A DNA stretch of 64,000 bases from Bacteroidales bacterium (lineage in GTDB: Bacteria; Bacteroidota; Bacteroidia; Bacteroidales; UBA1715). Under the pieces are notes generated by a model. The model had not been told where the DNA came from. It saw nothing but the letters and a program-made list of their open reading frames with translations, and did not search any database. The stretch is taken from positions 93,989 through 157,988 of the forward strand of contig JAKSTZ010000001.1 of the NCBI GenBank assembly GCA_024402335.1, in the 5' to 3' direction. A program made the position numbers and the translations under genes. Shown piece after piece: positions 20,831 through 43,404 of this stretch (within the stretch, counting starts at the first letter, position 1; each line of letters starts with the position of its first letter).

Positions 20831-20838
20831 TATCTTTG
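20831..20838 (+). promoter_or_regulatory. Bacteroidetes-type -7 promoter box (TATCTTTG)
   Basis: Matches TAnnTTTG just upstream of the TPR-phosphatase gene. It overlaps the track's TTG start, which argues for a later ATG. Confidence 0.4.
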
Positions 20839-20862
20839 ACTCAAAGAATGTTCTTCAAAAAA

Positions 20863-23439
20863 ATGAAAAAAATCATTTCAGTATTACTCCTTTGTTGTTC
20901 CGTGTTTGCATACGCACAGACACGGCATTCCATTGATAGTCTGGAAAATGTGTTAGACAAAGCAAAAGGCGACGAAAAAATTACGACACTACAAAAACTG
21001 TCGATTCTATATCTTAACGAATCTCCACAAAAAGCATTCGAAGCTGCAAGAAAAGTATTCTACTACACATCTTTTAGTACCAATACTACCCTACTTTCCG
21101 ACGCATATTACACAATAGGCTATCTTCATTCTAAAACAAGTTCCTTAGACTCGGCAAAGATTTACTTCAACAAAGCATTACAAACAAGCGAAACCAACGA
21201 ACAAACTGCAAAAATCCTAGACAATCTTGGCACAACATACCGAGAATTAAGCAAATACGATTCTTCCCTTGTCTGCCACGAGCAAGCATTAAAATTAGAA
21301 CAAATTCTTGGTGACCGCGAAGCTATTTCTATCTGCTACAAGAACATAGGCAATGTGCACATGCAAATGGCGAGATACGAAGATGCTTTGGAATACTACA
21401 AGTTTTCGTTAGAGCAACGTTCCGAAGAAACCGATAAGAAAGCAATAGCCTCGCTATACAACAGCATGAGTAACGCATTAGTCGGGCTAAACAAATACGG
21501 TGAAGCGCTTTCGTACTTGACACAAGCTGTTGACCTACAAGCACAAATCGGCGACAAAGCTGACGAAGCTTATACATTAAACGGCATCGGTAACTTTTAT
21601 TTCCGCCTAAAAGTTTACGACAAAGCACAGGAATACTATACTAAAGCACTTGACCTACGACTACAAGTCGGAGACAAGAATGACATTGCCGCATCGCAAT
21701 TCAATATTGCCACCGTACACCGTGATTTAGGCAACTACCGCGAAGCGCTTAAATACTATAGTCAGGCATTGGAGCTCCGTAAACAAACCGACAACAAAGA
21801 AGCCCAAGCGCTGATTTACAACGCAATAGGTGGAACATACAAGAATCAGAAAGCCTATCAAAAAGCAATAGACAATTACCAACTTGCACTTGAAAGCAAT
21901 GAAAAAATCGGCAGCAAGAAAAACATTGCGAGTTCGTACGAACGTCTTGGTATGATATACAAAGACACTTGCCTATACGACAAAGCAGCGAATTACTACC
22001 AAAAGGCAACAAACGAATATCTTGCCATTGGCGACACACTCAATGTTGGTAGAATGTACAACTTCTACGGCAACCTCAACAAAGAAAAAGGCGACATGGC
22101 TGCCGCAATGCAATGCTACGAAAAAGCTATGCAATTCTACAAAAACAATCTTTTAGGAAAAGCATACACAACATTCAACCAAGGAAAGATAACAAACTCC
22201 GAACCGCACTACCTACGAGCATTGGAATATGCAGAACAATGTGAAGAAAAAACACTCGTACGCGATATTTTATATGCATTGTACACGTTAAAGAAACAAC
22301 AAAACAACAAAGAACTATCGCTTGCATACTTTGAACGATATGTTGCACTGAAAGACACTATCGAGAACGATAAGAACAAAGAACGTATAGCCGAATTGGA
22401 ATTTGAATCGGATATTAAAGTATTGGAGCATGTCAACGAAAACCAATTACTCCGCCTACGTGAAGAGGAACTAAAAAACAGCCAGACTCATATTTTCATT
22501 GGTTTTCTTTGTTTGATTTTGTTGGCAATCCTTGCATTCTCCATCATTATCTACAAGCAATTCGCACAAAAGAAAAATGCGTTTAATTTATTATCACAAA
22601 AGCAATTAGAGGTTGAGTCTGCCTACAGCGACGTAAAAAAAGTAAATGACGTTTTAGCCCACAAGAACTCACAAATTACCGACAGCTTAACATACGCTAA
22701 ACGTATTCAAAAGTCTATTCTTCCTTCGGAAACAGAAATCGCAGGTGTTTTCCCGCAACATTTCATCTACTATTTACCAAAAGAAATAGTAAGTGGTGAT
22801 TTCTATTGGTTTTCGGAAATAGACAACTACGTATTTTTTGCCGCAGTTGACTGTACCGGCCACGGCGTTCCGGGTGCCTGCATGTCGATGGTAGGCAACA
22901 CATTATTAAATCAGATTATAAATGAGAACAAAATAACTTCCCCATCGGAGATACTTAACCAACTCGACACAGAAGTTATGAAGACATTACGTCAGAATGA
23001 GGATAACGATTCGCAGGAAGACGGAATGGCAATTTCATTAATCCGCTACGACAAGAGTAAATCGGAGATAGTATTTGCCGGTGCCGGGCAGAAAATTCTT
23101 GTACACAATGCCAAAGGGCTACAGGAATATGCAACATCGTTGTATAGCATTGGCGGTATGCACGCATACAAACAAACCAAACAAATGAAATTTGAGGAAA
23201 CCACGATTTCCGTAGAGCCAAACACAAGCATATACTTATATTCAGACGGATTCGCAGATCAATTTGGCGGCGGAGACAAAAAAGAACGATATTCTTCGCA
23301 ACGATTCAAACAAATGATTGCCGACATGCAATCGATGGATATGGCAGAACAATTCATGAATGTATCAAGAACATTTGATTCATGGAAAGGTAGCGAAAAA
23401 CAAATTGACGACATACTTGTCGTGGGTTTAAAACTATAA
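20863..23439 (+). CDS. TPR-repeat / TM / SpoIIE (PP2C-like) serine phosphatase domain protein
   Basis: Signal-like MKKIISVLLLCCSVFAYAQ, about 10 TPR units, the TM segment IFIGFLCLILLAILAFSIIIY, and the C-terminal SGDFYWF...AAVDCTGHGVPGACMSM motif of SpoIIE/PP2C. ATG 20848 is an alternative start. Confidence 0.85.
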   Translation: MKKIISVLLLCCSVFAYAQTRHSIDSLENVLDKAKGDEKITTLQKLSILYLNESPQKAFEAARKVFYYTSFSTNTTLLSDAYYTIGYLHSKTSSLDSAKIYFNKALQTSETNEQTAKILDNLGTTYRELSKYDSSLVCHEQALKLEQILGDREAISICYKNIGNVHMQMARYEDALEYYKFSLEQRSEETDKKAIASLYNSMSNALVGLNKYGEALSYLTQAVDLQAQIGDKADEAYTLNGIGNFYFRLKVYDKAQEYYTKALDLRLQVGDKNDIAASQFNIATVHRDLGNYREALKYYSQALELRKQTDNKEAQALIYNAIGGTYKNQKAYQKAIDNYQLALESNEKIGSKKNIASSYERLGMIYKDTCLYDKAANYYQKATNEYLAIGDTLNVGRMYNFYGNLNKEKGDMAAAMQCYEKAMQFYKNNLLGKAYTTFNQGKITNSEPHYLRALEYAEQCEEKTLVRDILYALYTLKKQQNNKELSLAYFERYVALKDTIENDKNKERIAELEFESDIKVLEHVNENQLLRLREEELKNSQTHIFIGFLCLILLAILAFSIIIYKQFAQKKNAFNLLSQKQLEVESAYSDVKKVNDVLAHKNSQITDSLTYAKRIQKSILPSETEIAGVFPQHFIYYLPKEIVSGDFYWFSEIDNYVFFAAVDCTGHGVPGACMSMVGNTLLNQIINENKITSPSEILNQLDTEVMKTLRQNEDNDSQEDGMAISLIRYDKSKSEIVFAGAGQKILVHNAKGLQEYATSLYSIGGMHAYKQTKQMKFEETTISVEPNTSIYLYSDGFADQFGGGDKKERYSSQRFKQMIADMQSMDMAEQFMNVSRTFDSWKGSEKQIDDILVVGLKL

Positions 23440-26138: not shown

Positions 26139-27008
26139 ATGAAGAAATTATTAGTTTCAATGGTATGTTTGATTGCTATAGTAACAGCATACGCACAAGA
26201 TTCCTACTATTGGTATAAAGGAGAAAAAATACAATTAAAAGAAGTAAAGACTGAATATTTTATCTGTTATACAGATAAAAATCTATTTGACTATTTGAAG
26301 AAATCGGATGATGTAATACAAAATACATCAGGAATGTCTTTCCCAAATATGAATCTACAAGCAGGGGTTGAGTCAAAACTACAGGAATACTTTTATTCAA
26401 TTGTTCCAGCAACTAAATTAGATGAGATTTCACAAAATTATGAGATTCCATATATTACAAAAAATTATAAGTTAGATGGTTCAGAAGAAGACTTCTGTGT
26501 TTCAAATATTTTTTATGTGAAACTGAAATCTGAAGATGATTTCTCCGTTTTACAAAACATGGCAGAACAATATGATGTCACAATAGTCGGAAATAATGAA
26601 TTCAATCCATTATGGTATAGTTTAATTTGTTTTAACACAAAAAATGGTGATGCACTTCATTTGGCAAATCTATTTTTCGAATCAGGTGCTTTTGCTGCTT
26701 CAGAACCAGATTTAATGGGTGGTTTACCAACAGCGGTCATCTCAGTTGAGCAAGAAAAAGAAGTCTCTTTAAGAATGACAAACAATTCTTCATTGAATTT
26801 ACAGGCAAATCTGTCAAACTTACATTCGGTGATTTCTATCAATGTATATAATATTCAAGGAGTACAGGTTAAGGGAATGACATTATGTAATACCAATTCC
26901 TTTAACGAGGAAATTGAATTATGTGGAGAACCTATTGGCTTATATGTTGTTGTTGTACAAGCAGATGGCAAAATAATATTTAGTAAAAAAGTCCTAATTT
27001 GCAAATAA
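26139..27008 (+). CDS. Secreted hypothetical protein with a probable T9SS type-A C-terminal sorting domain
   Basis: Signal peptide MKKLLVSMVCLIAIVTAYAQ. The C-terminus INVYNIQGVQVKG...GLYVVVVQADGKIIFSKKVLI resembles Por-secretion tails. Confidence 0.55.
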   Translation: MKKLLVSMVCLIAIVTAYAQDSYYWYKGEKIQLKEVKTEYFICYTDKNLFDYLKKSDDVIQNTSGMSFPNMNLQAGVESKLQEYFYSIVPATKLDEISQNYEIPYITKNYKLDGSEEDFCVSNIFYVKLKSEDDFSVLQNMAEQYDVTIVGNNEFNPLWYSLICFNTKNGDALHLANLFFESGAFAASEPDLMGGLPTAVISVEQEKEVSLRMTNNSSLNLQANLSNLHSVISINVYNIQGVQVKGMTLCNTNSFNEEIELCGEPIGLYVVVVQADGKIIFSKKVLICK

Positions 27009-32137: not shown

Positions 32138-32185
32138 ATTGGGTGTATGCAATACAACAACCCATTGGGCGTATGCGATACGCCC
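32138..32185. repeat. Two direct copies of a REP-like unit ATTGGGYGTATGCRATAC
   Basis: Copies at 32138-32155 and 32164-32181. The second forms the hairpin GGGCGTA-TGCGA-TACGCCC (32167-32185). Confidence 0.65.
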
Positions 32186-32265
32186 CGACGATAATCAATA
32201 TTCATTAACCATTTAATATTAACCATTTTATTGTAACTTTACCCCAATTTATTTGTCTATTGTAA

Positions 32266-35200
32266 ATGAAACGATTGGGGCTGATATTACTATTTCTCTA
32301 TTCATTCTTGAGCGTATTTGCCCAAGAATCATCCATCGTTTTCACCGAAAACCAGAAACAATGGCCTTCGAATGTTTTATTTCGCAGCCAACTACACAAA
32401 GGGAATGTTTTTCTTGAGAAAAACTGTCTCACCTACTACTTTTTCGACGAAGAAAATTCGAAACATCGCCACGGTGCATATTCTGTTTCCGAAGAAGAAC
32501 TACAACAAAGTTTAGAACGATTTGAGCAAACTGGAGAACAACCGAAGCGAAAACAAGAACGAAAACCTGATTTTTTTCGTGCACACGCATACAAGGTTTC
32601 GTTCGTCAACATGAATTCACGAACAAAAATTTATGGAACTTCACAAACACCATATACCGAGAATTATTTAATCGGCAGCAATCCTAAAAATTGGGCTACC
32701 GGTGTTCGTAGTTTCTCTAAAGTAATCTACGAAAATATCTATAAAAACATTTTTCTACAGATTTATGGGAATGGCCCCGATCTCAAATATGACTTTGTGA
32801 TTCAACCTGGCGGAGATCCACAAAAAATACAATTACTCTATTCGAACGTGCCTGCAATGACTGTCAGAAGCGACGGTGTTTTGCAAATAAAAACTTCGGT
32901 AAACGAAGTTTATGAACAAAAGCCATTTGCTTATCAAATAATTGGCGGCGACACTGTTACAGTTCCATGCACCTACCATTTGGAGCATTTTACCGTAAGC
33001 TACGATTTAGGGAAATACAATCCGTCATATACTCTTTACATAGATCCCGATTTAATTTTCTCTACTTATACCGGCTCAACTTCCGACAATTGGGGGTTTA
33101 CCGCCACATACGATTCCGAAAACAACGCTTATCTTGGAGGTATAGTTGAAGGATTTGGTTACCCGGTCAACATGGGAGCAATTCAAACAGAATATGCAGG
33201 CGGCAATTGGGACATAGGAATCATAAAACTTGATGCAACTGGCACCAAACGATTATATGCCACATATCTTGGTGGCTCAAGCTGCGAAATGCCTCATAGT
33301 TTCATTGTGAATAGCAAAAACGAGCTATTAATCTTAGGCACAACCGGTTCTGCCGATTTTCCGACTGCCAATGCTTATCAAAAGACATTCGCCGGAGGCG
33401 ACTACACTTTATACGACAACACTATATTATTCGAAAATGGTGTGGACATATTCGTAAGCCGCCTTTCGCCTGACGGAACAACGTTGCTTTCATCCACATT
33501 TTTAGGCGGAAGCAAAAACGACGGCATCAACTTTAGTTGGGAAACCGATTTGGAATACGGACACGATTCGTTGTATTACAACTATGGCGACGGTGCACGT
33601 GGTGAAATCATGATTGACGATGACGACAATGTATATATTGCTTCAACCACATTCTCCGACGACTTTCCTATTGTAAACGGATTTCAAAGCACATTCGGAG
33701 GCATGCAAGATGGCATTGTATGCAAATTCGATCCCGAAGTTTCCACCTTACAATGGAGTTCATATATCGGCGGCGACAGCAAGGACGCTTCATATTCCAT
33801 AGACATAGATCACGACAATAGTGCGTATGTTACAGGAGGAACTTGTTCTTCTACCCTCAACTTGCCTGCAGGAGGTTATCAACCTGACCGTATTGGCGGA
33901 ACCGTTGACGCTTATATTCTGAAAATAAACCGCAACTCGGGAGAATTAGAAGCAGGCACATATTTTGGTTCAACTGAATACGACCAAGCACATTTTGTAC
34001 GAGTAAACTCAAATAACAAAGTCTTTATTTTCGGACAAACAACTGCAAAAGGCAACACCCTGATTTACAACGCAAAATACAACAACCCAAATAGTGGACA
34101 ATTCTTAGCCTCGTTTTCGAACGACCTACAGACACTAAATTGGTCAACCGTATTTGGTTCAGGATTAGGAAGGCCGAACATATCACCTACAGCTTTTGAA
34201 GTGGACATTTGCAACCGTATTTATCTTGCCGGTGTCGGACGAGATTGGAATGACCAACCAGGTTGGTATTTTTACGGGAATACCGGATATCGTTTATATG
34301 ACTACGGATGGGAAGCGATACAGGGGACTAAGGGAATGGAAGTAACCGATGATGCTTACCAAAAAGAAACCGATGGTAAGGATTTCTACATCATGGTTAC
34401 CGATGACGAAGCAAATAATCTTGACTATGCCACATTTTTTGGAGAACTCTCGGATGCGTATGTACTCTACAATCCTTTCAATGGACAATATCTATACAAT
34501 GGATGTACGTCAAGCGGACGCGACCATGTAGATGGCGGAACTAGTCGTTTTGATGCAAATGGCTATGTTTATCAAAGCGTTTGTGCGAGTTGCGGAGGAT
34601 GCAACGGATTCCCGATTTATCCAAAACCAGGAGCGTGGTCCACTAAAAACAATGCAAGCAATTGCAACAGCGCAATTCTTCGCTTCGTAATTGATTTTGG
34701 CCTGATTAAAGCTAATTTCGACTTGCCTGAAGTTGGTTGTGCAAGCAAAGAACTTACGTTCAAAAACACATCGGAAGTTCATTACAATAATCCAAAGCTT
34801 ACCTATTTATGGGACTTTGGAGACGGAACTACCTCAACAGAAGAATCACCTGCACACACATACAAGGCAAACGGGAAATATACTATAACTCTCTGGGTAA
34901 AAGACTCAACCTCGTGCAACCAAAGTGATTCGGTAACAAAAGTTCTTTCCATAGTTACCAAAACAAATTACGAGATATTAGATACAAAAAATATCTGTTT
35001 AGGCGACAGCGTGTTAATTGGTATTCCTAACGAATACGATGAATCGTTGGAATATTCATGGTCGCCGACAAATTGGATTACCGATCCGTCAAAACCGTCA
35101 TCATACACAAGACCAAACGACACGACCACATATCAACTTTCGGTTACATCGGGATGGTGCCAAACTATTTACGAGCAAACCGTCAACACGTTTAACCAAG

Positions 35201-36717
35201 ATTATTTTGTTAAAAAAATCAATGTTGAGAAAAATGGTGTCCCACAAAAACCATACATCTGTAAAGGAGACAATGTGAAACTTACCGTTGAAACCAACGC
35301 TCCTTCTCAACGATATTTATGGGCAACAGACAAAAATTTCAGGAACATAATCAGCCCTGACTTTTCACTAAACTATATTGAATTCACCCCGACAGAAACC
35401 ACTACACTATACGTTAAAACACTCAGCACCTATTGCGAATTCGAAGCAATTGATTCAATTACTGTACACGTGTTCCATAACAAAATTACCGTTACAGGTG
35501 ACACGCTGATTTGTAAAGGAGACATGACGCCTATTTTCGTAGAAAATCTTACGCCAAAGAATCCTCTCACTTATTTATGGACACAAAAAAATCAAATATA
35601 TGACGGAGCAAATACAAGTTCTCCACTTGTAAAGCCAAATAAGACAACTAAATTTATAGTATATGCAACCGACTCTGTTGGTTGTAGTTACACCGATACC
35701 GTACTTGTAGAAGTTGATGAATTGCTCATAAACGTAGAGAACTTCCAACCTATCAGCTGCCATGGCGAAACCGACGCACAATTTGATATTGTTCCTATCG
35801 GATTCCCGCCATATCAAATTGCATGGGATGACAACACATCTTTTCCCGGGAAATACAACGTCGGTCCTGGTACATATACCGTTTTTGTAAGCGACAGTTT
35901 AGGTTGTACAAACAAAGAAGAAATAGAAGTTGTTGATCCAAAAGAACTTACAATTGATTCAACCATATTTTCACATGAGACCTGTAAAGGCGCTTGCAAT
36001 GGCACAATTACACTAAAAGTTTCCGGAGGAACCGAGCCATATTCTTATCTATGGAATACTGAAGACAACAGCGCAGAACTAAAACGACTTTGCCCTGGAG
36101 AATATAGTGCGACAATAACCGATGCACATGGTTGTACCACAGCACTTTCACAACCAATACAAATCAGGTTGGAAGAAAAAATTCCTAATGTTGATGCGTT
36201 TGCCGAATCGAACTTGGTTTTCATCGGACAGGAAACAAAAATTCATGCAACGAAAAATCCAGAAGAAAACATAACATATCTTTGGACACCAAACATTTGG
36301 TTAGACGACAACACGAAAGCAATAGCCACAGTTACACCAGACATTCCTTTAGAACTCACATTCAAAGTCATTGCCATAGATGCATACGGTTGTCAAAATA
36401 CCGATACCGTACAACTTACATCTGTAGAATGGATTTGCGACAAGCCGTTCATATTTGTACCTACAGCATTCACTCCAAACAACGATGGCAAAAACGACGT
36501 AATTTCCGTCAACAGTAAAGTAATCACCAATTTAGAATTCTCCATATTCGACCGTTGGGGAGAACTTGTATTCGAAACAAATGACATCAACTCTAGCTGG
36601 GACGGAACATACCACGGGAAATTACTTCAGCCACAAGTGTTTGTGTATCATCTAAAAGCAACTTGCTTAAATGGTGAAAAGTTCGAAGAAAAAGGAAACA
36701 TCACGCTCATACGATAA
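32266..36717 (+). CDS. Giant secreted adhesin-like protein: SBBP beta-propeller repeats, PKD domain, SprB-type repeats, T9SS type-B (gliding-motility) C-terminal domain
   Basis: Signal peptide present. Repeated (S/D)xDFP..N.(F/Y)Q.TF(A/G)G motifs (SBBP-like). PKD motif WDFGDGTTSTEESPAHTYKANGKYTITL. Cys-containing SprB-like repeats (ISCHGETDAQ..., ETCKGACNGTITLKVSGGTEPYSYLW). C-terminus FVPTAFTPNNDGKNDV...IFDRWGELVF...WDGTY. Confidence 0.9.
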   Translation: MKRLGLILLFLYSFLSVFAQESSIVFTENQKQWPSNVLFRSQLHKGNVFLEKNCLTYYFFDEENSKHRHGAYSVSEEELQQSLERFEQTGEQPKRKQERKPDFFRAHAYKVSFVNMNSRTKIYGTSQTPYTENYLIGSNPKNWATGVRSFSKVIYENIYKNIFLQIYGNGPDLKYDFVIQPGGDPQKIQLLYSNVPAMTVRSDGVLQIKTSVNEVYEQKPFAYQIIGGDTVTVPCTYHLEHFTVSYDLGKYNPSYTLYIDPDLIFSTYTGSTSDNWGFTATYDSENNAYLGGIVEGFGYPVNMGAIQTEYAGGNWDIGIIKLDATGTKRLYATYLGGSSCEMPHSFIVNSKNELLILGTTGSADFPTANAYQKTFAGGDYTLYDNTILFENGVDIFVSRLSPDGTTLLSSTFLGGSKNDGINFSWETDLEYGHDSLYYNYGDGARGEIMIDDDDNVYIASTTFSDDFPIVNGFQSTFGGMQDGIVCKFDPEVSTLQWSSYIGGDSKDASYSIDIDHDNSAYVTGGTCSSTLNLPAGGYQPDRIGGTVDAYILKINRNSGELEAGTYFGSTEYDQAHFVRVNSNNKVFIFGQTTAKGNTLIYNAKYNNPNSGQFLASFSNDLQTLNWSTVFGSGLGRPNISPTAFEVDICNRIYLAGVGRDWNDQPGWYFYGNTGYRLYDYGWEAIQGTKGMEVTDDAYQKETDGKDFYIMVTDDEANNLDYATFFGELSDAYVLYNPFNGQYLYNGCTSSGRDHVDGGTSRFDANGYVYQSVCASCGGCNGFPIYPKPGAWSTKNNASNCNSAILRFVIDFGLIKANFDLPEVGCASKELTFKNTSEVHYNNPKLTYLWDFGDGTTSTEESPAHTYKANGKYTITLWVKDSTSCNQSDSVTKVLSIVTKTNYEILDTKNICLGDSVLIGIPNEYDESLEYSWSPTNWITDPSKPSSYTRPNDTTTYQLSVTSGWCQTIYEQTVNTFNQDYFVKKINVEKNGVPQKPYICKGDNVKLTVETNAPSQRYLWATDKNFRNIISPDFSLNYIEFTPTETTTLYVKTLSTYCEFEAIDSITVHVFHNKITVTGDTLICKGDMTPIFVENLTPKNPLTYLWTQKNQIYDGANTSSPLVKPNKTTKFIVYATDSVGCSYTDTVLVEVDELLINVENFQPISCHGETDAQFDIVPIGFPPYQIAWDDNTSFPGKYNVGPGTYTVFVSDSLGCTNKEEIEVVDPKELTIDSTIFSHETCKGACNGTITLKVSGGTEPYSYLWNTEDNSAELKRLCPGEYSATITDAHGCTTALSQPIQIRLEEKIPNVDAFAESNLVFIGQETKIHATKNPEENITYLWTPNIWLDDNTKAIATVTPDIPLELTFKVIAIDAYGCQNTDTVQLTSVEWICDKPFIFVPTAFTPNNDGKNDVISVNSKVITNLEFSIFDRWGELVFETNDINSSWDGTYHGKLLQPQVFVYHLKATCLNGEKFEEKGNITLIR

Positions 36718-37724
36718 TGCGCAAGAAATTGCTGACATATCTATTTTTCTTTTTCCTTGTGCGAAGCGTTATTGCACAAGACATTCACTTTTCTAATTTC
36801 TATTCGAACACACTCAATCTGAATCCGGCAGAATCAGGATTTTTTACGGGAAGACATCGATTTTGCTTAGCATACCGCGACCAATACAGAACTGTAGCAA
36901 GACCATATAAAACACTTGCAGCAAGTTACGACAGGAAAATAGCAAAACGAACAATGAATAGCATGTTCGGTCTCGGAATATTACTCGATGCCGGCGATGC
37001 AAACTATACAACTGTTCAATTCGGTATTCCGTTGGCACACCATATCCCATTGGCAGGGAAAACCATATTGATTTCATACGGAATTATGCCTGCAATACAT
37101 CATTCTTCTATCGACTACAGCAATCTTACTTTTGGAGAACAATTTAATGGAATACAATTCATTCCCGACATAGAAATAAGCGAAGACGTGGACATGAATT
37201 CCGTACTTTATTGCAATATTGATGCTGGGGCACAAATCACGTACAAACCTTCAAAAACACAAACCTATACTTTGGGGATGGCTTGGAACAACATCAACAA
37301 GCCAACAATGTCATTTTTTAAAGACAATGATGCGCAATTACGACAACGAGTTCTATTACATGCATCCGGAATCATATCTATAACCTCAACATTCGACGTT
37401 GTTCCCGGAGCAAAGATTCAGTTTCAAGGCAAGCAACACGAATTCCAATTTGGCGGAATGGGAATCTATTATTTCCCTAAGTCAACTATATCGCAAGGGC
37501 AAGCGGGAATCTGGTTTCGCTCCAAAAATAAAGACGCCGTTATTTTTGGACTCGGAGCACAATATAGCGGATTCGACATCATGCTAAACTACGATTTAAA
37601 CATTTCTAAATTACACACAGCCAGCAACTTCCACGGAGCTTTCGAAATCACATTGTCATATATTGTCGAGGATCAAAACCGCAGCAAACGAATGACTGCC
37701 ATACGTTGTCCGCACACATTATAA
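36717..37724 (+). CDS. PorP/SprF family type IX secretion system membrane protein
   Basis: N-terminus AQDIHFSNFYSNTLNLNPAESGFF, ~335 aa, and positioned directly after a type-B CTD cargo (TAATG overlap). Confidence 0.85.
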   Translation: MRKKLLTYLFFFFLVRSVIAQDIHFSNFYSNTLNLNPAESGFFTGRHRFCLAYRDQYRTVARPYKTLAASYDRKIAKRTMNSMFGLGILLDAGDANYTTVQFGIPLAHHIPLAGKTILISYGIMPAIHHSSIDYSNLTFGEQFNGIQFIPDIEISEDVDMNSVLYCNIDAGAQITYKPSKTQTYTLGMAWNNINKPTMSFFKDNDAQLRQRVLLHASGIISITSTFDVVPGAKIQFQGKQHEFQFGGMGIYYFPKSTISQGQAGIWFRSKNKDAVIFGLGAQYSGFDIMLNYDLNISKLHTASNFHGAFEITLSYIVEDQNRSKRMTAIRCPHTL

Positions 37725-37798
37725 AACATCATTTTATTCTAAAACTGACCATGTAACTATTCGAAATTTATATCTTTGTGAAATAAAATGTATTGACT

Positions 37799-38788
37799 AT
37801 GAAAAAGATAATCTCTACCATATTTTTAGTTGGATTAACTGCTATCGTTTTTATCGGTTGTAAAAAAATTGAACGCATATATTTTAGTCCAGTTACAACC
37901 ATAGACAAAATGGAAATAATTGATATGACCGCCATTACAGACAGCACATTCCTCGTATTATGCAAAGACAAAGACGAGAAACGTGAAGTTTATCGTTGCA
38001 CATGGGGAAAAAATCAAAAAGTTACATCTAAAAAAATGGGAAAAACACTCAGTCTAAAATTCAACACCATAGAATTTAAAGATGGCAAAACATGGTTAGC
38101 CGGCGACACACTTGCTATTCGCATGAGTGAAGACACAGGAACTTCATGGGCACGATGGAAATCAAAATCGTTTGACGATTGGAAAGAAAATTGGCATAGC
38201 GACATATCCGACCTAACAAACATTTACATCAAAAACGACGAACCATATTTTGCAATAGGCACTGATGATTTATTCAAAGGTAACTTCTATTGGTTTAGTA
38301 CAGAATGGAATAGCTGGAAAAGCGGACAAAAACAATTCGGTCTTAACGACATGCTTGTATGCGACGACAGTCTTGTTTACATTGCAGGCTATGGTTCCAT
38401 CTGCTTTGCCAATAAGATGGGAGAAAATCATACATTAGAAAACATTGGTGGCGAGAACTTTACAAGCATCTGTACAAACGGTAAATATGTCTATGCTTGT
38501 TCATATTCCGGGAAAATTTACCGTAGCAAAATAGCTGAAAACAAATGGGAACATGTCTATTCAAAAGGAACTCGCCTATTGTTTATAGAATCCGACAACG
38601 CCGGAAATGTGGTAGCCGTTGGCGAAAGCAAAAAAATCAGTATCTCTAATGACAATGGTGAGAACTGGCGAGAAGAAAGCTATTCTGACGGCAACAAAAT
38701 CTCATGTATGAAAATGATAAATAACGAATTTTATATAGGTACAGAGAAAGGAGTTATTATAAAACTAAACAACGCTAACCTTCAATAA
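37799..38788 (+). CDS. Lipoprotein with BNR/Asp-box (beta-propeller-like) motifs
   Basis: Lipobox VFIGC. Asp-box motifs SEDTGTSW and SNDNGENW. ATG at 37799; the track ORF starts at TTG 37793. Confidence 0.6.
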   Translation: MKKIISTIFLVGLTAIVFIGCKKIERIYFSPVTTIDKMEIIDMTAITDSTFLVLCKDKDEKREVYRCTWGKNQKVTSKKMGKTLSLKFNTIEFKDGKTWLAGDTLAIRMSEDTGTSWARWKSKSFDDWKENWHSDISDLTNIYIKNDEPYFAIGTDDLFKGNFYWFSTEWNSWKSGQKQFGLNDMLVCDDSLVYIAGYGSICFANKMGENHTLENIGGENFTSICTNGKYVYACSYSGKIYRSKIAENKWEHVYSKGTRLLFIESDNAGNVVAVGESKKISISNDNGENWREESYSDGNKISCMKMINNEFYIGTEKGVIIKLNNANLQ

Positions 38789-41700
38789 ATGAGAAAATTC
38801 TTTTTCCTCGCAGCATTTGTTATCTCTGCTTTTTATTCATTTTCGCAACAACTTATTTTAAATGAGATAGTTGCAAAAAATGCAAACTCATACACCAACG
38901 AGCAAGACAAAACACCGGATTGGATAGAAATTAAAAACACATCTAATTCCGCCATTCAACTTTCAAACTACAGTCTTGCCACAAAAGATTGTTTAAATAC
39001 ACCATGGCAACTACCCGACACAAAACTTGCAGCCGGTGCCGTTACATTATTTGAGGCAAAAGAATCTCAAACGGTAGCACAATGGGAAACGGTTATTGAC
39101 TTAGGACACTCTTTCACATATACAGTACCTTCATACGAGATAAGCAACTGGAACAAAGAAGATTTTAACGACAACGAATGGAATAACGGGCCTTCCCCTA
39201 TCGGATTTGGAGAATCAATTATTGCCAGCAGCGTTCCAGCAGGAACAAAATCGGTATTTCTACGAACAACTTTTCCCGTTAGCGATATCAACGACATTGC
39301 AAACCTTATGCTCCACATGGACTGCGACGATGGATTTATCGCATACATAAATGGAAAAGAAGTTGTTCGATTCAACATGAACCAAACAACATATAACGCA
39401 TTTGCAAACAGCGCAACAGAAGGAGTTATTGCCAACGGAGGAAACCCAGAAAAATACATAATTGAAAATCCACAAAGTTTCTTACACGAAGGAACAAATA
39501 CATTTTGCGTACAAGTACACAACTGCAATGCAACATCAAGCGACTTGCTGGCAATTCCTATCTTAAGCATTGGGTATAACACAACAAAAGACTATCGCGG
39601 AGAAACATCCAAATACTGCAGTTTCTCAAGCGGTAATACATTTCCACACTCGCTAAACGCATCTTCCGACATTGTATATTTACTATATAACAACAGCATT
39701 GTTGATAGTATTTCATGGAAAGATATTCCTGTAGATATCTCTATCGGACGAAAAAGTGGTGACAATACGAATATTTATTATTTTCAAAAGCCAACGCCTG
39801 GGAAAGCAAACATTTACGAGGCATTCGTTTCTGAGACTCTTGAGAAGCCAAAGCTTTCAGTACCAGGAACCGTATTCACAACCGGAGAAATATTCTATGT
39901 ATCTGCATATTCCAGCGAAACAGAAGTAACCATTCGCTACACAACCGACGGATCTGTTCCTACAGAAAGTTCCAAGGTCTTTCCTGAAAAACTACTTATC
40001 TCCGCTACAACCAACTTACGTGTACGAGCATTCAGAAGTGGCTATTTACCAAGTAAAACAACAACATGCACATACCTATACCTAAACAGAAATCAAAATC
40101 TGCCAATCGCTTCTATTACCGCTAAAAAAGGAGATTTTTTCAGCAACACGGAAGGTATTTATATGCTTGGTCCAAACGCGGAAAAAGAAGAACCATACTA
40201 TGGGGCAAACTTCTGGCAAGATTGGGAAAAGCCTATCCATTTTGAATATTTCGACGAAAATGGAGATTGCGTAGTTTCACAAGATGCTGGTGTAAAAATC
40301 GGTGGAAACTGGAGCCGTGCCCAACCGCAAAAAACACTAAAAATCTATGCCCGCGATGAATATGGAAAAGACGAAATAGAATATCAGTTTTTTAAAGACA
40401 AACCTATTTCTTCATTCCATCTTATTTTATTGCGAAATAGCGGCAACGACTTTAACAACACTCAAATGCGCGATGGTGTTATTTCCGAGCTTGCAAAACA
40501 AATGGACATAGACCGACAAGCATACCAACCTGCTATAGTTTTTATAAACGGTAAATACTATGGAATCCAAAATGTGCGCGAAAAACAAAACAAACATTAT
40601 GTTGCAGAAAACTACGGCTACGACAAAGACGATATTGATGTCATTAAAAACGGTGGTGAAGTTGTAGATGGCAACAACACCGACTATTTTGTGATGCGAA
40701 ATTTTATGGAAAACGCCGATTTATCTCAAGAAAACAACTACGAGCAAGCTAAAAAATATATAGACATACAAAACTTCATCGACTACAACATTTTGGAAAT
40801 GTATGTGGTTAACGAAGACTGGCCTGGGAACAACATTGCCTATTGGCATTCCCGCTCAGCAAACACCCCTTGGCGCTATATGCTTTTCGACGCAGATTTC
40901 GGATTAGGTATATGGGACCTTGAAAAGAAGGTCAACAAAAACATGTTTCAATGGTGCACACTTGCAAATTCCAGCGACTACGCAACTGCTCCATGGTCCA
41001 CTATCATTTTACGACAGCTACTTAAAAACGCCGAATTCAAAAAAAATTTCCTTAACAGCCTTGCCGACCGATTAAACACAACACTTTCCGCATATACGGT
41101 AAATCACACTATAGATTCTGTTCACAAAATCATAGAAGATGAAATGTATTTCCACAAAGAAAGATGGAAAGACAATTGGCAAGATGGTTGGCTTAAACAA
41201 ATGAAAGATTTCGGAAGTCGTCGCGATGACATCATGAGAAGACAAGCCGAAGATTTCTTCTCAACCAACGGCAGTTATAAACTAACAATTTCATCTTCGG
41301 GAAAAAATGCAGGTGTTATTCAACTGAACAGCATAACTGTTTCTGCTTTCCCGTGGTCTGGGAAATACTTCAACAACAACACTATTTCATTAACAGCCAT
41401 AGCAAAACCTGGATATAAATTCATACGTTGGGAAGGTGCTGTTAATTCTACAGAAAAATCTATCACTATCACCACAAATCAAGCCACGAGTATAACAGCC
41501 GTGTATGAGTATATTGGAAACGAACCAAACATTCAATTTACTGAGGTTTACTATCATACATATCAAGATGATGAAACCAAATGGATAGAACTCTACAATA
41601 TAAATAGCGCACAACCAACCCTTGATATCTCAAATTGGACAATTACATTCGACAGATACAACCAAACATTCACCTTCCCAGAAGGAAGCAAATTAGGAAC

Positions 41701-42736
41701 AGATGAACATCCTAACATTCTTATTGTTGCGAAAAACAAAGAACGCTTTTGTGCTAAATATCCTAGTGTGCCTGCAGAATCAGTCATTGGCAATTTAGGC
41801 ATTGACTTTCCAAAAGATTTTGCAACGATTACATTACGAAATGCAGATGGTTGTAAAATGGCAGAAATGTATTATTCCGACCAGTTCCAATATGCAAAAA
41901 AAGCCGATGGATACGGATATTCTTGTGCAATTCTCGACCAAACTTGGTGTTCTTACGAATTAGGTGGTGATCCTTTAAACATATATTACAAACCCGAAAA
42001 TGTTGACCCTGAGCGATGGCCTATAATTACAGAAATCAATTTTGCACCAAGCAAGACATTTGATTCAGGCGACTGGATTGAGATTTACAACCCTGACAAA
42101 TATGCTACTTTCAGTCTAAAAGATTGGATGATTAAAGATGACGGAGGTAAAATATCCGTAATCTACGATGATATAACTATTGCACCAGGAGAATATATAG
42201 TATTCGCAAACAACCCAGAAAAATTCCATAACATCTACCCTGACGTACAATGCTATCAATTAGACTTATCGCTAAACAATTATCAAGACGGTATTAGTTT
42301 GTATAACAAATTCGAAAGAATAATTGACCAAGTATCATACTCCATGTTTGATGGAAAATGGGCAACGAACACATTCAAAACAGGAAGGACACTTTCACTT
42401 CGAGACTATAATTCAAACAACGCATTAGGTAAAAACTGGTCGGCAAGTAAAAGTTTTGGAACACCAGGAAGAGAAAACGACTATATTCTAACAGATATTC
42501 CTGAAAATGAACAAATTCAAGTTGCAGCATTTCCAAATCCATGTAAAGATTATCTTACAATACAATGTGAAGGTAGTTTCACATACGAAATAGTTACTTC
42601 TAATGGCGTGATGATTGCTTCAAACGAAGCCGAAAACCAAGTATTCGTTCCAGTAAGAGAACTTTCTATAGGAATATATTTTGTTGTTGTTTATAAAGAC
42701 AATCTAACTATTATTAAGAAAATAGTTAAAGAATAG
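38789..42736 (+). CDS. CotH kinase-family protein with three lamin-tail domains and a T9SS type-A C-terminal sorting domain
   Basis: LTD signatures: LILNEIVAKN...PDWIEIKNTS, IQFTEVYY...KWIELYNIN, IITEINFAP...GDWIEIYNPD. CotH core: GGNWSRAQPQKTLKIYAR, LLRNSGNDFNNTQMRDG, YYGIQNVREK, MYVVNEDWPGNNIAYW. CTD: FPNPCKDYLTIQ...IGIYFVVVYKD. Confidence 0.85.
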   Translation: MRKFFFLAAFVISAFYSFSQQLILNEIVAKNANSYTNEQDKTPDWIEIKNTSNSAIQLSNYSLATKDCLNTPWQLPDTKLAAGAVTLFEAKESQTVAQWETVIDLGHSFTYTVPSYEISNWNKEDFNDNEWNNGPSPIGFGESIIASSVPAGTKSVFLRTTFPVSDINDIANLMLHMDCDDGFIAYINGKEVVRFNMNQTTYNAFANSATEGVIANGGNPEKYIIENPQSFLHEGTNTFCVQVHNCNATSSDLLAIPILSIGYNTTKDYRGETSKYCSFSSGNTFPHSLNASSDIVYLLYNNSIVDSISWKDIPVDISIGRKSGDNTNIYYFQKPTPGKANIYEAFVSETLEKPKLSVPGTVFTTGEIFYVSAYSSETEVTIRYTTDGSVPTESSKVFPEKLLISATTNLRVRAFRSGYLPSKTTTCTYLYLNRNQNLPIASITAKKGDFFSNTEGIYMLGPNAEKEEPYYGANFWQDWEKPIHFEYFDENGDCVVSQDAGVKIGGNWSRAQPQKTLKIYARDEYGKDEIEYQFFKDKPISSFHLILLRNSGNDFNNTQMRDGVISELAKQMDIDRQAYQPAIVFINGKYYGIQNVREKQNKHYVAENYGYDKDDIDVIKNGGEVVDGNNTDYFVMRNFMENADLSQENNYEQAKKYIDIQNFIDYNILEMYVVNEDWPGNNIAYWHSRSANTPWRYMLFDADFGLGIWDLEKKVNKNMFQWCTLANSSDYATAPWSTIILRQLLKNAEFKKNFLNSLADRLNTTLSAYTVNHTIDSVHKIIEDEMYFHKERWKDNWQDGWLKQMKDFGSRRDDIMRRQAEDFFSTNGSYKLTISSSGKNAGVIQLNSITVSAFPWSGKYFNNNTISLTAIAKPGYKFIRWEGAVNSTEKSITITTNQATSITAVYEYIGNEPNIQFTEVYYHTYQDDETKWIELYNINSAQPTLDISNWTITFDRYNQTFTFPEGSKLGTDEHPNILIVAKNKERFCAKYPSVPAESVIGNLGIDFPKDFATITLRNADGCKMAEMYYSDQFQYAKKADGYGYSCAILDQTWCSYELGGDPLNIYYKPENVDPERWPIITEINFAPSKTFDSGDWIEIYNPDKYATFSLKDWMIKDDGGKISVIYDDITIAPGEYIVFANNPEKFHNIYPDVQCYQLDLSLNNYQDGISLYNKFERIIDQVSYSMFDGKWATNTFKTGRTLSLRDYNSNNALGKNWSASKSFGTPGRENDYILTDIPENEQIQVAAFPNPCKDYLTIQCEGSFTYEIVTSNGVMIASNEAENQVFVPVRELSIGIYFVVVYKDNLTIIKKIVKE

Positions 42737-42852
42737 CGGATTTCCCAAAGGTTACATTCCGTTTTCAACAATTATGAATACTTATTAACAACAGACTTTT
42801 GTTTGTTAAGAAATGTCTATTTTTGAAATCGGTAAAAAATGATTATTGAACT

Positions 42853-43404
42853 ATGAGATTTAGTAAGCTTGTATTGTTATTAGGAATGTTGATAGTTAGC
42901 ACTACAGCATTTGCCCAATATGACGATGATGAAACTGTACAATCAAGAAAGAGTACACATAAGAAAGAAAAAGTTCACTCTGGTCCAGCGGCAAAAAGCC
43001 GTGATATGAAGAAGCAAGACAACTTCAAATCAAGCGTTAACAAAACTACGCACTTGAGCAAGAAGGAACAAGCTAAATTACAAGCTAAAAAAGAAAAAGA
43101 ACATCAAAAACGTTTCGAGTCTAACCGCAAAAAAATGCAAGACAAGAAGACTTTGAAACGAATGAAACAAAATGAAAAATACTCATATCGTACCAATTCA
43201 GCAAAAGGAAAATCATGGCAAAGTCGAAAACACGAGTCTAAATCTACTAAGGCTAACAGGAAACGATCAAAAGCTTTAGAAAAGAAACAAGACGAAGCAC
43301 GCGAAAGGTACGAGAACAAGGACTATAAACCTGGAGCAAGGAAAACGACTCGAAAAGGTAAAATCCGCGAATTCCAAAACCCTTTCAAACGAGATAAACA
43401 CTAG
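42853..43404 (+). CDS. Secreted polybasic (Lys/Arg-rich) hypothetical protein
   Basis: Signal peptide MRFSKLVLLLGMLIVSTTAFAQ followed by low-complexity K/R/E/Q-rich sequence. Confidence 0.55.
   Translation: MRFSKLVLLLGMLIVSTTAFAQYDDDETVQSRKSTHKKEKVHSGPAAKSRDMKKQDNFKSSVNKTTHLSKKEQAKLQAKKEKEHQKRFESNRKKMQDKKTLKRMKQNEKYSYRTNSAKGKSWQSRKHESKSTKANRKRSKALEKKQDEARERYENKDYKPGARKTTRKGKIREFQNPFKRDKH

What the first reader, a model, noticed from the sequence alone, without database searches (positions are those of the whole stretch)
32266..42736. Single four-gene operon combining a type-B-CTD giant adhesin, its PorP/SprF partner, a propeller lipoprotein and a type-A-CTD CotH kinase
The genes are contiguous on the plus strand: 32266-36717, 36717-37724 (TAATG overlap), 37799-38788 and 38789-42736 (TAA directly followed by ATG). 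Pairing of a type-B CTD cargo with a dedicated PorP/SprF-like protein is established. Co-transcription with a BNR-motif lipoprotein and a second, differently sorted (type-A CTD) cargo that is a CotH-family atypical protein kinase is unusual. Inference: this may be a surface module in which a secreted or surface-tethered kinase modifies the adjacent SprB-like adhesin or host/prey surface proteins, with the lipoprotein as an anchor or adaptor.
Basis: partly seen in the sequence, partly recalled or inferred. Interest (0 to 1): 0.55.

Follow-up and report, generated by a model that had tools for sequence, protein, structure and literature searches.

The report
Two secretion-cargo gene pairs side by side
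The four neighbouring genes are real, but relatives show they are two separate two-gene units (an adhesin with its outer-membrane shuttle, and a lipoprotein with a secreted CotH-type kinase) that lie together only in this gut Bacteroidales lineage, so the arrangement is largely ordinary.

Summary
The four plus-strand genes, their junctions and their domain assignments are all confirmed. The window comes from an uncultured Bacteroidales MAG. The CotH core has the Bacillus CotH kinase fold and keeps the catalytic and metal-binding aspartates.

The reading as one functional four-gene operon does not hold up. The four-gene order occurs only in close relatives (CotH at least 81% identical). In more distant relatives the orthologous adhesin+PorP pair is a self-contained unit followed by convergent genes. 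In one MAG that pair and the lipoprotein+CotH pair lie on different contigs.

The lipoprotein sits directly upstream of CotH in nine lineages, with changing flanks. It also occurs without CotH in three lineages. A conserved Bacteroidetes -7 promoter box lies 24-52 nt upstream of the lipoprotein gene in at least 9 of 13 loci, including inside the 74-nt gap here.

Across the wider CotH-LTD-CTD family (74 species-representative loci), the recurrent neighbours are VTC, DUF4956, DUF2490 and glycan-active genes. PorP and type-B cargo never appear there.

Verdict: two known kinds of T9SS cargo cassette brought together by a lineage-specific rearrangement. The clade-restricted lipoprotein-CotH pairing is the only mildly new element.

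The parts
32167..32185 (+). Perfect 8-bp hairpin (GGGCGTAT-GCG-ATACGCCC) in the 154-nt spacer after the pgsA-like gene. It probably marks the upstream boundary of the adhesin unit.
   Evidence: Sequence. The spacer folds better than shuffles (z -2.53).
32233..32258 (+). GTAACTTTACC-N11-GTCT, a candidate promoter of the adhesin+PorP unit.
   Evidence: Conserved upstream of the adhesin orthologues in the window, L011, L096 and L097, whose proteins are 66-92% identical. Function not tested.
32266..36717 (+). SprB-like T9SS adhesin of 1483 aa: signal peptide, DUF7948, SBBP propeller repeats, PKD, SprB repeat, type-B CTD.
   Evidence: NCBI names it 'gliding motility-associated C-terminal domain-containing protein', MCQ2607173.1.
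36454..36714 (+). Type-B C-terminal sorting domain of the adhesin (aa 1397-1483).
   Evidence: PF13585 58.9 bits against a cut-off of 27; TIGR04131 57.8 bits against 35.
36717..37724 (+). PorP/SprF-family outer-membrane protein, the cognate shuttle/anchor of the adhesin. Its start overlaps the adhesin stop (ATAATG).
   Evidence: Orthologous pairs in L011, L096 and L097 keep the same overlap; L098 has a short gap instead.
37771..37778 (+). TATCTTTG, a Bacteroidetes-type -7 promoter box (TAnnTTTG) 28 nt upstream of the lipoprotein ATG, inside the 74-nt gap.
   Evidence: The same box lies 24-52 nt upstream of the lipoprotein gene in at least 9 of 13 loci. Background is 0.63 per kb per strand. The gap has no terminator-like structure.
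37799..38788 (+). Lipoprotein of 329 aa (Cys21): 7-bladed BNR/Asp-box beta-propeller of the Ycf48/DUF6242/sortilin type.
   Evidence: The tight family is small: 13 representatives at E<=1e-30 among 1.84 billion proteins.
38789..42736 (+). T9SS type-A cargo of 1315 aa: signal peptide, LTD with an insertion, CHB_HEX_C/Fn3_assoc, CotH kinase core, Flg_new_2, two LTDs, type-A CTD.
   Evidence: NCBI names it 'CotH kinase family protein', MCQ2607176.1.
40292..41230 (+). CotH kinase core (aa 502-814). D677 and N682 (DWPGNN) correspond to Bacillus subtilis D228 and the D-x4-N loop. D701 and D703 (FDADFG) correspond to D251 in WDYD.
   Evidence: Foldseek top hits are B. cereus CotH 5JDA/5JD9, E 7.6e-13, TM 0.76. 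hhalign alignment, numbering, invariance within the family.
42530..42733 (+). Type-A C-terminal sorting domain of the CotH protein (aa 1248-1315).
   Evidence: PF18962 35.4 bits against 27; TIGR04183 29.4 bits against 23. The family profile hits solved T9SS CTD chains 8glk_D and 8glj_D.

Best explanation
The region holds two independent T9SS-cargo units that a lineage-specific rearrangement placed next to each other.

Unit A (32266-37724) is a SprB-like adhesin with a type-B CTD plus its cognate PorP/SprF outer-membrane protein. After Sec export, the adhesin crosses the outer membrane through the T9SS and is handed to its own PorP-like protein, which holds it on the surface. This step is established for SprB-SprF and PG1035-PorP and is inferred here.

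Unit B (37771-42736) has its own promoter. It encodes a beta-propeller lipoprotein that is translationally coupled to a large secreted CotH-family phosphotransferase. The CotH protein carries a type-A CTD, so it should use the PorV/PorU route and be released or attached to the surface (inferred). Its catalytic residues are intact, so it is probably an active enzyme (inferred from residues and fold).

The lipoprotein is most likely a dedicated envelope partner of CotH that docks, escorts or restrains it. I put this sub-claim at about 0.5.

There is no evidence that unit B acts on unit A. Read-through from A into B is possible because the 74-nt gap has no terminator.
For: Linkage of the four genes:
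- The four-gene order is present only in the window, in identical contigs L001/L002, in L011 (lipoprotein 84% identical), and in two further close MAGs by consecutive accessions or a shared contig.
- Orthologous adhesin+PorP pairs (adhesin 57-67% identical, PorP 45-65%) stand alone in L096, L097 and L098, each followed by a convergent gene.
- L097 and L004 come from the same MAG but from different contigs.

Lipoprotein and CotH:
- The lipoprotein sits directly upstream of CotH in nine lineages: window, L004, L007, L012, L013, L017, L019, L020 and L021. Spacing runs from an 11-nt overlap to a 92-nt gap and is at most 10 nt in seven of the nine.
- The flanks differ between these lineages.
- All 6 GTDB species representatives with a CotH core at least 58% identical have the lipoprotein. 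None of the 74 with 51% identity or less has it.

Promoters:
- TATCTTTG or TATATTTG lies 24-52 nt upstream of the lipoprotein ATG in at least 9 of 13 loci.
- A separate conserved motif lies upstream of the adhesin orthologues.

CotH as an enzyme:
- Fold and active-site residues match Bacillus CotH.

Literature:
- Type-B cargo paired with a PorP-like shuttle or anchor: PMC9143113 and PMC12618676.
Against: - The gap between PorP and the lipoprotein gene has no terminator-like hairpin. Co-transcription of all four genes is therefore not excluded.
- The promoter box is a consensus match, not a mapped transcription start.
- The lipoprotein occurs without an adjacent CotH in three lineages (L014, L006, L009). 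In five lineages it is flanked by an ECF sigma/anti-sigma-like pair. Its tie to CotH may therefore be positional.
- All lipoprotein+CotH pairs come from one Bacteroidales clade, so shared ancestry inflates the synteny count.
- No activity, localisation or interaction data exist.
Confidence: 0.66

Rival explanations
1. All four genes form one functional surface module: the secreted CotH kinase phosphorylates the adjacent SprB-like adhesin (or host/prey proteins bound by it), and the lipoprotein acts as anchor or adaptor.
For: The genes are contiguous on one strand with overlapping or abutting junctions and no terminator in the 74-nt gap. The order is kept in close relatives. The CotH catalytic residues are intact.
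Against: The two pairs are unlinked in every relative below about 80% identity, including within a single MAG. None of 74 wider-family loci has PorP or type-B cargo beside CotH. A conserved internal promoter box precedes the lipoprotein gene. The adhesin has no Ser/Lys/Arg-rich region like the Bacillus CotH substrates (by inspection).
Confidence: 0.06
2. There are three units, not two. The lipoprotein is an old resident of this chromosomal site, linked to an ECF sigma/anti-sigma pair and to the p183-TPR-polA block. CotH was merely inserted beside it in one subclade, and the two have no functional relationship.
For: The lipoprotein occurs without CotH in L014 (lipoprotein-p183-TPR-PolA), L006 and L009. 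In MAG GCA_964558075.1 the lipoprotein (L009) and CotH (L022) lie on different contigs, and that CotH sits in a VTC/DUF4956/DUF2490 cluster. An ECF sigma plus a ~540-aa protein flank the lipoprotein in five lineages.
Against: Where both are present, the pair stays together while both flanks change: upstream PorP, anti-sigma, DUF4412, DAPDH or a histidine kinase; downstream p183, rubrerythrin or radical SAM. The junctions are overlapping or nearly so, which suggests translational coupling.
Confidence: 0.22
3. The CotH protein is not a protein kinase here. It is an extracellular phosphotransferase acting on glycans or using polyphosphate, part of the fibre/exopolysaccharide-associated surface apparatus. 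The adhesin is irrelevant to it.
For: In the wider family, VTC (polyphosphate-polymerase-like), DUF4956, DUF2490, GH3 and CBM9-CTD genes recur beside CotH. CotH + polyphosphate polymerase + DUF4956 accompany Gram-positive pel loci (PMC7112168). The LTD-LTD-Fn3-CotH architecture occurs in a C. thermocellum cellulosomal protein (PMC6083626). CHB_HEX_C/Fn3_assoc modules are present in this protein. ATP is scarce outside the cell (general knowledge).
Against: The window's 64 kb hold no VTC, DUF4956 or DUF2490 genes. The only characterised CotH enzymes are Ser/Thr protein kinases (PMC7821199). No biochemical data exist for this clade.
Confidence: 0.25

Closest known systems
SprB-SprF (Flavobacterium johnsoniae) and PG1035-PorP-PorE (Porphyromonas gingivalis): type-B CTD cargo with a cognate PorP-like shuttle/anchor
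   Same: A type-B CTD at the extreme C-terminus, a SprB repeat, and a PorP/SprF-family gene immediately downstream. The start/stop overlap is conserved in the closer orthologues L011, L096 and L097 (PMC9143113, PMC12618676).
   Different: The adhesin is much shorter than SprB and has a DUF7948 + SBBP propeller N-terminal part. No gliding-motility context was examined. The neighbouring propeller lipoprotein lacks PorE's TPR, CarboxypepD_reg and OmpA_C parts.
Bacillus CotH spore-coat Ser/Thr kinase (PDB 5JD9/5JDA) with substrates CotB and CotG
   Same: Pfam CotH match and the same atypical kinase fold (Foldseek E 7.6e-13, TM 0.76). The equivalents of D228 and D251 are conserved.
   Different: Only 13-14% sequence identity, and a profile search of PDB sequences does not reach it. 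The core is embedded in a 1315-aa secreted multidomain T9SS cargo in a non-sporulating Bacteroidales. No CotB/CotG-like neighbours.
LTD-Fn3-CotH extracellular proteins of Firmicutes cellulosomes (C. thermocellum Cthe_0239; CseP Cthe_0044)
   Same: The same LTD + Fn3-type + CotH module order on an extracellular protein of a plant-fibre-degrading anaerobe (PMC6083626).
   Different: Targeting is by a T9SS type-A CTD instead of a dockerin. The function of the cellulosomal proteins is also unknown.
CotH + VTC (polyphosphate polymerase-like) + DUF4956 accessory gene set (Gram-positive pel loci; many FCB-group genomes)
   Same: The same CotH-LTD-CTD protein family. About 20 of 74 species-representative loci carry VTC, DUF4956, DUF2490 or CarboxypepD_reg-like genes beside CotH (PMC7112168).
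   Different: None of these genes occurs in the 64-kb window. In this clade the neighbour is the propeller lipoprotein instead.
Ycf48 / BNR-Asp-box seven-bladed propellers (PF14870, DUF6242, sortilin-Vps10)
   Same: A 7-bladed propeller with Asp-box motifs. 16 of 18 family members give weak PSII_BNR matches, and Ycf48 structures are among the fold hits.
   Different: It is a lipoprotein of a non-photosynthetic bacterium. It scores below the Pfam cut-off, and the fold hits are generic WD40-type, so no function can be transferred.

Membership tests
T9SS type-B cargo + cognate PorP/SprF pair | Type-B CTD (TIGR04131 / PF13585) at the extreme C-terminus of a Sec-exported protein | tested here: met
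   TIGR04131 57.8 bits against 35 and PF13585 58.9 bits against 27, aa 1397-1483 of 1483. N-terminal signal peptide MKRLGLILLFLYSFLSVFAQ.
T9SS type-B cargo + cognate PorP/SprF pair | PorP/SprF-family gene adjacent to the cargo gene, with the adjacency conserved in orthologues | tested here: met
   TIGR03519 139.2 bits against 90.55. The pair is conserved in L011, L096, L097 and L098.
T9SS type-B cargo + cognate PorP/SprF pair | Secretion or anchoring of the cargo depends on its PorP-like partner | not testable with these tools
   Needs genetics or biochemistry. Established for SprB/SprF and PG1035/PorP (PMC9143113, PMC12618676).
T9SS type-A cargo | Type-A CTD (TIGR04183 / PF18962) at the C-terminus plus a signal peptide | tested here: met
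   TIGR04183 29.4 bits against 23 and PF18962 35.4 bits against 27, aa 1248-1315. The family profile hits solved CTD chains 8glk_D and 8glj_D.
CotH kinase family (PF08757) | Full-length match to the family model above its curated threshold | tested here: met
   120.9 bits against 23.8, model positions 1-320 of 322.
CotH kinase family (PF08757) | Atypical kinase fold of Bacillus CotH | tested here: met
   AF2 model pLDDT 86.7. Foldseek top hits are 5JDA/5JD9, E 7.6e-13, TM 0.64 (query-normalised) and 0.76 (target-normalised).
CotH kinase family (PF08757) | Catalytic Asp (Bs D228, D-x4-N loop) and metal-binding Asp (Bs D251) | tested here: met
   hhalign places D677...N682 on NFDGFVHN and D701/D703 on WDYD. 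D677 and N682 are invariant and D701/D703 are conserved in at least 90% of 17 family members. The roles of D228 and D251 come from PMC7821199. The alignment probability is only 42.7%, but it agrees with the fold match.
CotH kinase family (PF08757) | Protein Ser/Thr kinase activity on Ser/Lys/Arg-rich coat proteins in a sporulation context | tested here: not met
   No spore-coat genes in the neighbourhood. The organism is a Bacteroidales MAG. Enzyme activity itself is not testable here.
CotH-VTC-DUF4956 gene set | VTC and DUF4956 genes adjacent to cotH | tested here: not met
   HMMs built from L022 find these genes in 12-14 loci of the wider family but not in the window.
BNR/Asp-box propeller (Ycf48-like, PF14870) | Match above the curated threshold; Asp-box repeats; 7-bladed propeller | tested here: inconclusive
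   PSII_BNR 25.3 bits against a cut-off of 27. Two Asp-boxes are present, and the model is a 7-bladed propeller with only generic propeller hits.
PorE-like T9SS lipoprotein | TPR + propeller + CarboxypepD_reg + OmpA_C architecture | tested here: not met
   The 329-aa protein holds only a propeller.
Single four-gene operon / conserved module | One promoter, no internal promoter or terminator, and synteny conserved across taxa | tested here: not met
   No terminator in the gap. However, a conserved -7 box precedes gene 3, and four-gene synteny is limited to close relatives. Transcript structure itself is not testable here.

The most novel reading that the evidence does not exclude
A small, clade-restricted family of beta-propeller lipoproteins has become the dedicated envelope partner of a T9SS-secreted CotH-family phosphotransferase. 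It could act as a periplasmic restraint or escort, or as a surface dock. In this clade it would replace the VTC/DUF4956 (polyphosphate-linked) partners found beside CotH in other FCB bacteria. This would imply that secreted CotH-LTD enzymes are an unrecognised class of extracellular phosphotransferases in gut fibre-degrading Bacteroidales.
Probability: 0.2. Interest if true: 0.6.

Novelty: new member of a known kind. Interest (0 to 1): 0.3.

Why it matters
If the four genes were one module, it would be the first case of a T9SS kinase modifying a co-encoded adhesin. The comparative data argue against that, which saves experimental effort.

Two points remain useful. No paper in the searched library links CotH to the T9SS. 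Second, this work identifies their recurrent genomic partners: VTC, DUF4956, DUF2490 and glycan-active genes broadly, and a propeller lipoprotein in one gut Bacteroidales clade. That gives concrete handles for working out what an extracellular CotH enzyme does and which phosphate donor it uses.

Tried and rejected
- **PDB sequence searches.** phmmer of the CotH protein and a 17-sequence profile against PDB sequences did not reach Bacillus CotH. The link needed structure prediction plus Foldseek.
- **Getting the Bacillus sequence.** I obtained the real 5JD9 sequence by querying the PDB with a B. subtilis CotH sequence recalled from memory. That recalled sequence is one residue short, so its Asp positions read 227 and 250. 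The 23-residue spacing matches the published D228 and D251.
- **Nguyen et al. 2016 (PNAS).** The paper could not be retrieved. The roles of D228 and D251 are taken from PMC7821199.
- **Sigma-70 promoter scan.** It was uninformative: 53 sites against 50.9 expected. I used the Bacteroidetes -7 motif from my own knowledge instead.
- **Signs of a mobile insertion.** There are no flanking repeats, tRNAs or Rfam RNAs and no clear GC shift.
- **Anti-sigma-like protein of relatives.** I checked whether it is related to the window adhesin. It gives no hit in the window.
- **p183 as a CotG-like substrate.** It is basic and Ser-containing, but it is highly conserved and equally present where CotH is absent. 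I kept this only as a side note.
- **Lipoprotein export signal.** The residues after Cys21 (KKIE) are ambiguous, so I make no localisation call.

Full report
**1. Observation**

The ORF list gives four plus-strand ORFs at 32266-36717, 36717-37724, 37793/37799-38788 and 38789-42736.
- ATAATG at 36717.
- A 74-nt gap at 37725-37798.
- TAA followed directly by ATG at 38786-38791.

Pfam and NCBIfam confirm the domain assignments:
- Gene 1 has DUF7948, SBBP, PKD, a SprB repeat and a type-B CTD. TIGR04131 scores 57.8 bits against a cut-off of 35.
- Gene 2 is PorP/SprF. TIGR03519 scores 139 bits against 90.55.
- Gene 4 has LTD stretches, CHB_HEX_C/Fn3_assoc, CotH (120.9 bits against 23.8), Flg_new_2 and a type-A CTD. 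TIGR04183 scores 29.4 bits against 23.
- Gene 3 has a lipobox (Cys21) and two Asp-box motifs. Its PSII_BNR score of 25.3 bits falls just under the cut-off of 27.

The flanks are housekeeping genes. A CDP-alcohol phosphatidyltransferase lies upstream. A 183-aa protein, a TPR protein and DNA polymerase I lie downstream. Exact-sequence look-ups place the window in an uncultured Bacteroidales MAG, where the four proteins carry consecutive accessions MCQ2607173 to MCQ2607176.

**2. Is the CotH protein a plausible enzyme?**

Sequence searches against the PDB miss Bacillus CotH. An AlphaFold model of residues 438-870 (pLDDT 86.7) has B. cereus CotH 5JDA/5JD9 as its top Foldseek hits, with E 7.6e-13 and target-normalised TM 0.76.

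A profile-to-sequence alignment against the 5JD9 sequence (obtained) gives these equivalences:
- Window D677-W-P-G-N-N682 aligns with N-F-D-G-F-V-H-N.
- Window F-D701-A-D703-F-G aligns with W-D-Y-D.

These positions correspond to B. subtilis D228 and D251. Mutating either residue inactivates the kinase (PMC7821199). In the 17-sequence family alignment, D677 and N682 are invariant and D701/D703 are conserved in at least 90% of sequences. The refutation criterion 'active-site residues missing' is therefore not met.

**3. Synteny starting from the lipoprotein**

The lipoprotein has only 20 detectable relatives in the word-indexed search. A full HMM scan of 1.84 billion representatives finds 13 at E<=1e-30. 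So it is a small branch of the large BNR-propeller superfamily.

Gene contexts show the following:
- The order pgsA-adhesin-PorP-lipoprotein-CotH occurs only in the window's own sequence and in L011, whose lipoprotein is 84% identical.
- L004 has ECF sigma, a 540-aa protein, lipoprotein, CotH, a 179-aa protein, TPR and PolA.
- L013 has lipoprotein, CotH, a 176-aa protein, TPR and PolA.
- L007 has DUF4412, lipoprotein and CotH, followed by a convergent rubrerythrin gene.
- L012 has lipoprotein, CotH and a radical SAM gene.
- L014 has lipoprotein, a 183-aa protein, TPR and PolA, with no CotH.
- L006 and L009 have the lipoprotein alone, beside a divergent ECF sigma and a ~530-aa gene.

**4. Synteny starting from CotH**

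A scan of GTDB species representatives with the CotH-core alignment found 586 relatives, and 80 loci were kept. I called ORFs in all loci and searched them with HMMs built from the window proteins.
- All six loci whose CotH core is at least 58% identical carry the lipoprotein immediately upstream. All six are Bacteroidales MAGs, several from ruminant or horse gut samples.
- None of the 74 loci at 51% identity or less carries it.
- No locus outside the window lineage has a PorP or DUF7948/type-B protein beside CotH.

A second approach clustered all neighbours by BLAST and checked the clusters with Pfam. The recurrent partners in the wider family are:
- VTC in 12 loci.
- DUF4956 in 9-14 loci.
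- DUF2490 in 6-8 loci.
- A CarboxypepD_reg-like protein in 9 loci.
- GH3 in 7 loci.
- A CBM9-CTD protein in 5 loci.
- Tandem CotH paralogues in several loci.

A CotH + polyphosphate-polymerase + DUF4956 gene set has been described next to Gram-positive pel loci (PMC7112168). The LTD-LTD-Fn3-CotH architecture exists in a C. thermocellum cellulosomal protein (PMC6083626). None of the VTC, DUF4956 or DUF2490 genes is present in the 64-kb window.

**5. Synteny starting from PorP**

PorP orthologues at 45-65% identity were looked up in three contexts. Each is preceded by a full-length collinear adhesin orthologue of 1483-1500 aa that is 57-67% identical. L096 and L097 keep the same 1-nt start/stop overlap as the window and L011. 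The more distant L098 has a short gap instead. Each pair is followed by a gene on the opposite strand.

L097 belongs to the same MAG (GCA_024409235.1) as L004. In that genome, adhesin+PorP lie on contig 1 and lipoprotein+CotH on contig 3. The two pairs are therefore separate heritable units.

**6. Transcription signals**

A Bacteroidetes -7 box (TAnnTTTG; the consensus is from my own knowledge of Bacteroides and Flavobacterium promoters) lies 24-52 nt upstream of the lipoprotein start in the window (TATCTTTG at 37771-37778), L011, L004, L007, L012, L020, L021, L006 and L009. That is at least 9 of 13 loci. The background rate is 0.63 per kb per strand.

The adhesin orthologues share a different upstream motif, GTAACTTTACC-N11-GTCT.

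The 74-nt gap does not fold (-4 kcal/mol, z +0.74) and has no terminator-like site. Read-through from PorP is therefore possible. The spacer after the pgsA-like gene is structured (z -2.53) and contains a perfect 8-bp hairpin.

**7. The lipoprotein**

The model (pLDDT 88.4) is a 7-bladed propeller. Its fold hits are generic WD40-type proteins and Ycf48. It lacks the extra domains of PorE. The residues after the lipid-modified Cys (KKIE) do not clearly indicate surface export.

Its junction with CotH ranges from an 11-nt overlap to a 92-nt gap. It is at most 10 nt in seven of nine lineages.

**8. Interpretation**

The best-supported picture is two units.

Unit A is a standard type-B cargo with its PorP-like shuttle and anchor (PMC9143113, PMC12618676).

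Unit B is a propeller lipoprotein translationally coupled to a type-A-CTD CotH-family enzyme and driven by its own promoter. The coupling between lipoprotein and CotH is supported by the pair staying together while both flanks change. It is weakened by three lineages that have the lipoprotein but no adjacent CotH, and by the recurring ECF sigma/anti-sigma-like neighbours. I therefore rate a functional partnership at about 0.5.

Nothing links unit B to unit A beyond adjacency in one lineage.

What the CotH enzyme phosphorylates, and with which donor, remains open. The family-wide association with VTC/DUF4956 and glycan-active genes makes a non-protein or polyphosphate-linked role a serious alternative.

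**9. Novelty and score**

Both cassettes are new members of known kinds. NCBI already annotates the proteins as a gliding-motility CTD protein and a CotH kinase family protein. No paper in the searched library connects CotH with the T9SS. The lipoprotein-CotH pairing is undescribed but narrow. Interest is modest, at 0.3.

Noticed in passing
window 42853-43404 (+): A signal peptide followed by a very basic protein (K 24%, R 9%, S 9%). It is about 75% conserved among relatives and is always followed by a TPR protein and polA. It has its own TAnnTTTG box at 42818-42825. Its composition recalls the Ser/Lys/Arg-rich Bacillus CotH substrates, but it is unchanged where CotH is absent (L014).
   Followed up: partly
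L004 7801-9920; L020 2224-4396; L021 5223-7380; L006 7681-9836; L009 770-2904: An ECF sigma factor plus a ~540-aa single-pass membrane protein flanks the lipoprotein gene in five lineages, with or without CotH. The membrane protein has a PKD_6 domain and a C-terminus resembling a T9SS type-B CTD (sub-threshold CHU_C/TIGR04131 hits). An anti-sigma-like protein ending in a type-B-CTD-like domain is odd.
   Followed up: partly
L022 760-3652; also L047, L050, L054, L062, L080, L093, L094 and others: A CarboxypepD_reg-like - VTC - DUF4956 - DUF2490 gene cluster directly abuts CotH-LTD-CTD genes in about 20 of 74 species-representative loci. These span Bacteroidota, Ignavibacteriota, Calditrichota and related phyla. 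GH3 and CBM9-CTD genes also recur there.
   Followed up: partly
L023 1902-12247; L025 2000-12247; L091 6393-17269; L085 5336-12175: Tandem arrays of two or three full-length CotH-LTD-CTD paralogues.
   Followed up: no
P0065 (Prolixibacteraceae MAG CotH), core region: This CotH has FGAEF where the family has FDxDF, so it has lost both aspartates of the metal-binding motif. It is probably an inactive paralogue.
   Followed up: no
window 32233-32258 (+): GTAACTTTACC-N11-GTCT is conserved upstream of the adhesin orthologues. It resembles an ECF-type -35/-10 pair rather than the usual Bacteroidetes -7 box.
   Followed up: partly
L096 11058-19438; L097 11018-19443: A PorP_SprF (349-357 aa) - PD40-repeat protein (811-826 aa) - Peptidase_C25 (1619-1627 aa) cluster converges on the adhesin+PorP pair in two relatives. 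This is a second PorP-linked cargo set.
   Followed up: no
window 20836-23439 (+) and 26139-27008 (+): An 867-aa TPR protein ends in a SpoIIE/PP2C phosphatase domain. A separate 289-aa ORF has no Pfam family and a sub-threshold type-A CTD (TIGR04183, E 5e-4).
   Followed up: no
L004 20184 onward; L007 551-9172; L013 10397 onward: A giant T9SS protein of 2616-2873 aa (GH8 + Big_2 repeats + type-A CTD) lies within about 10 kb of the lipoprotein+CotH pair in three relatives. It is not present in the window.
   Followed up: no
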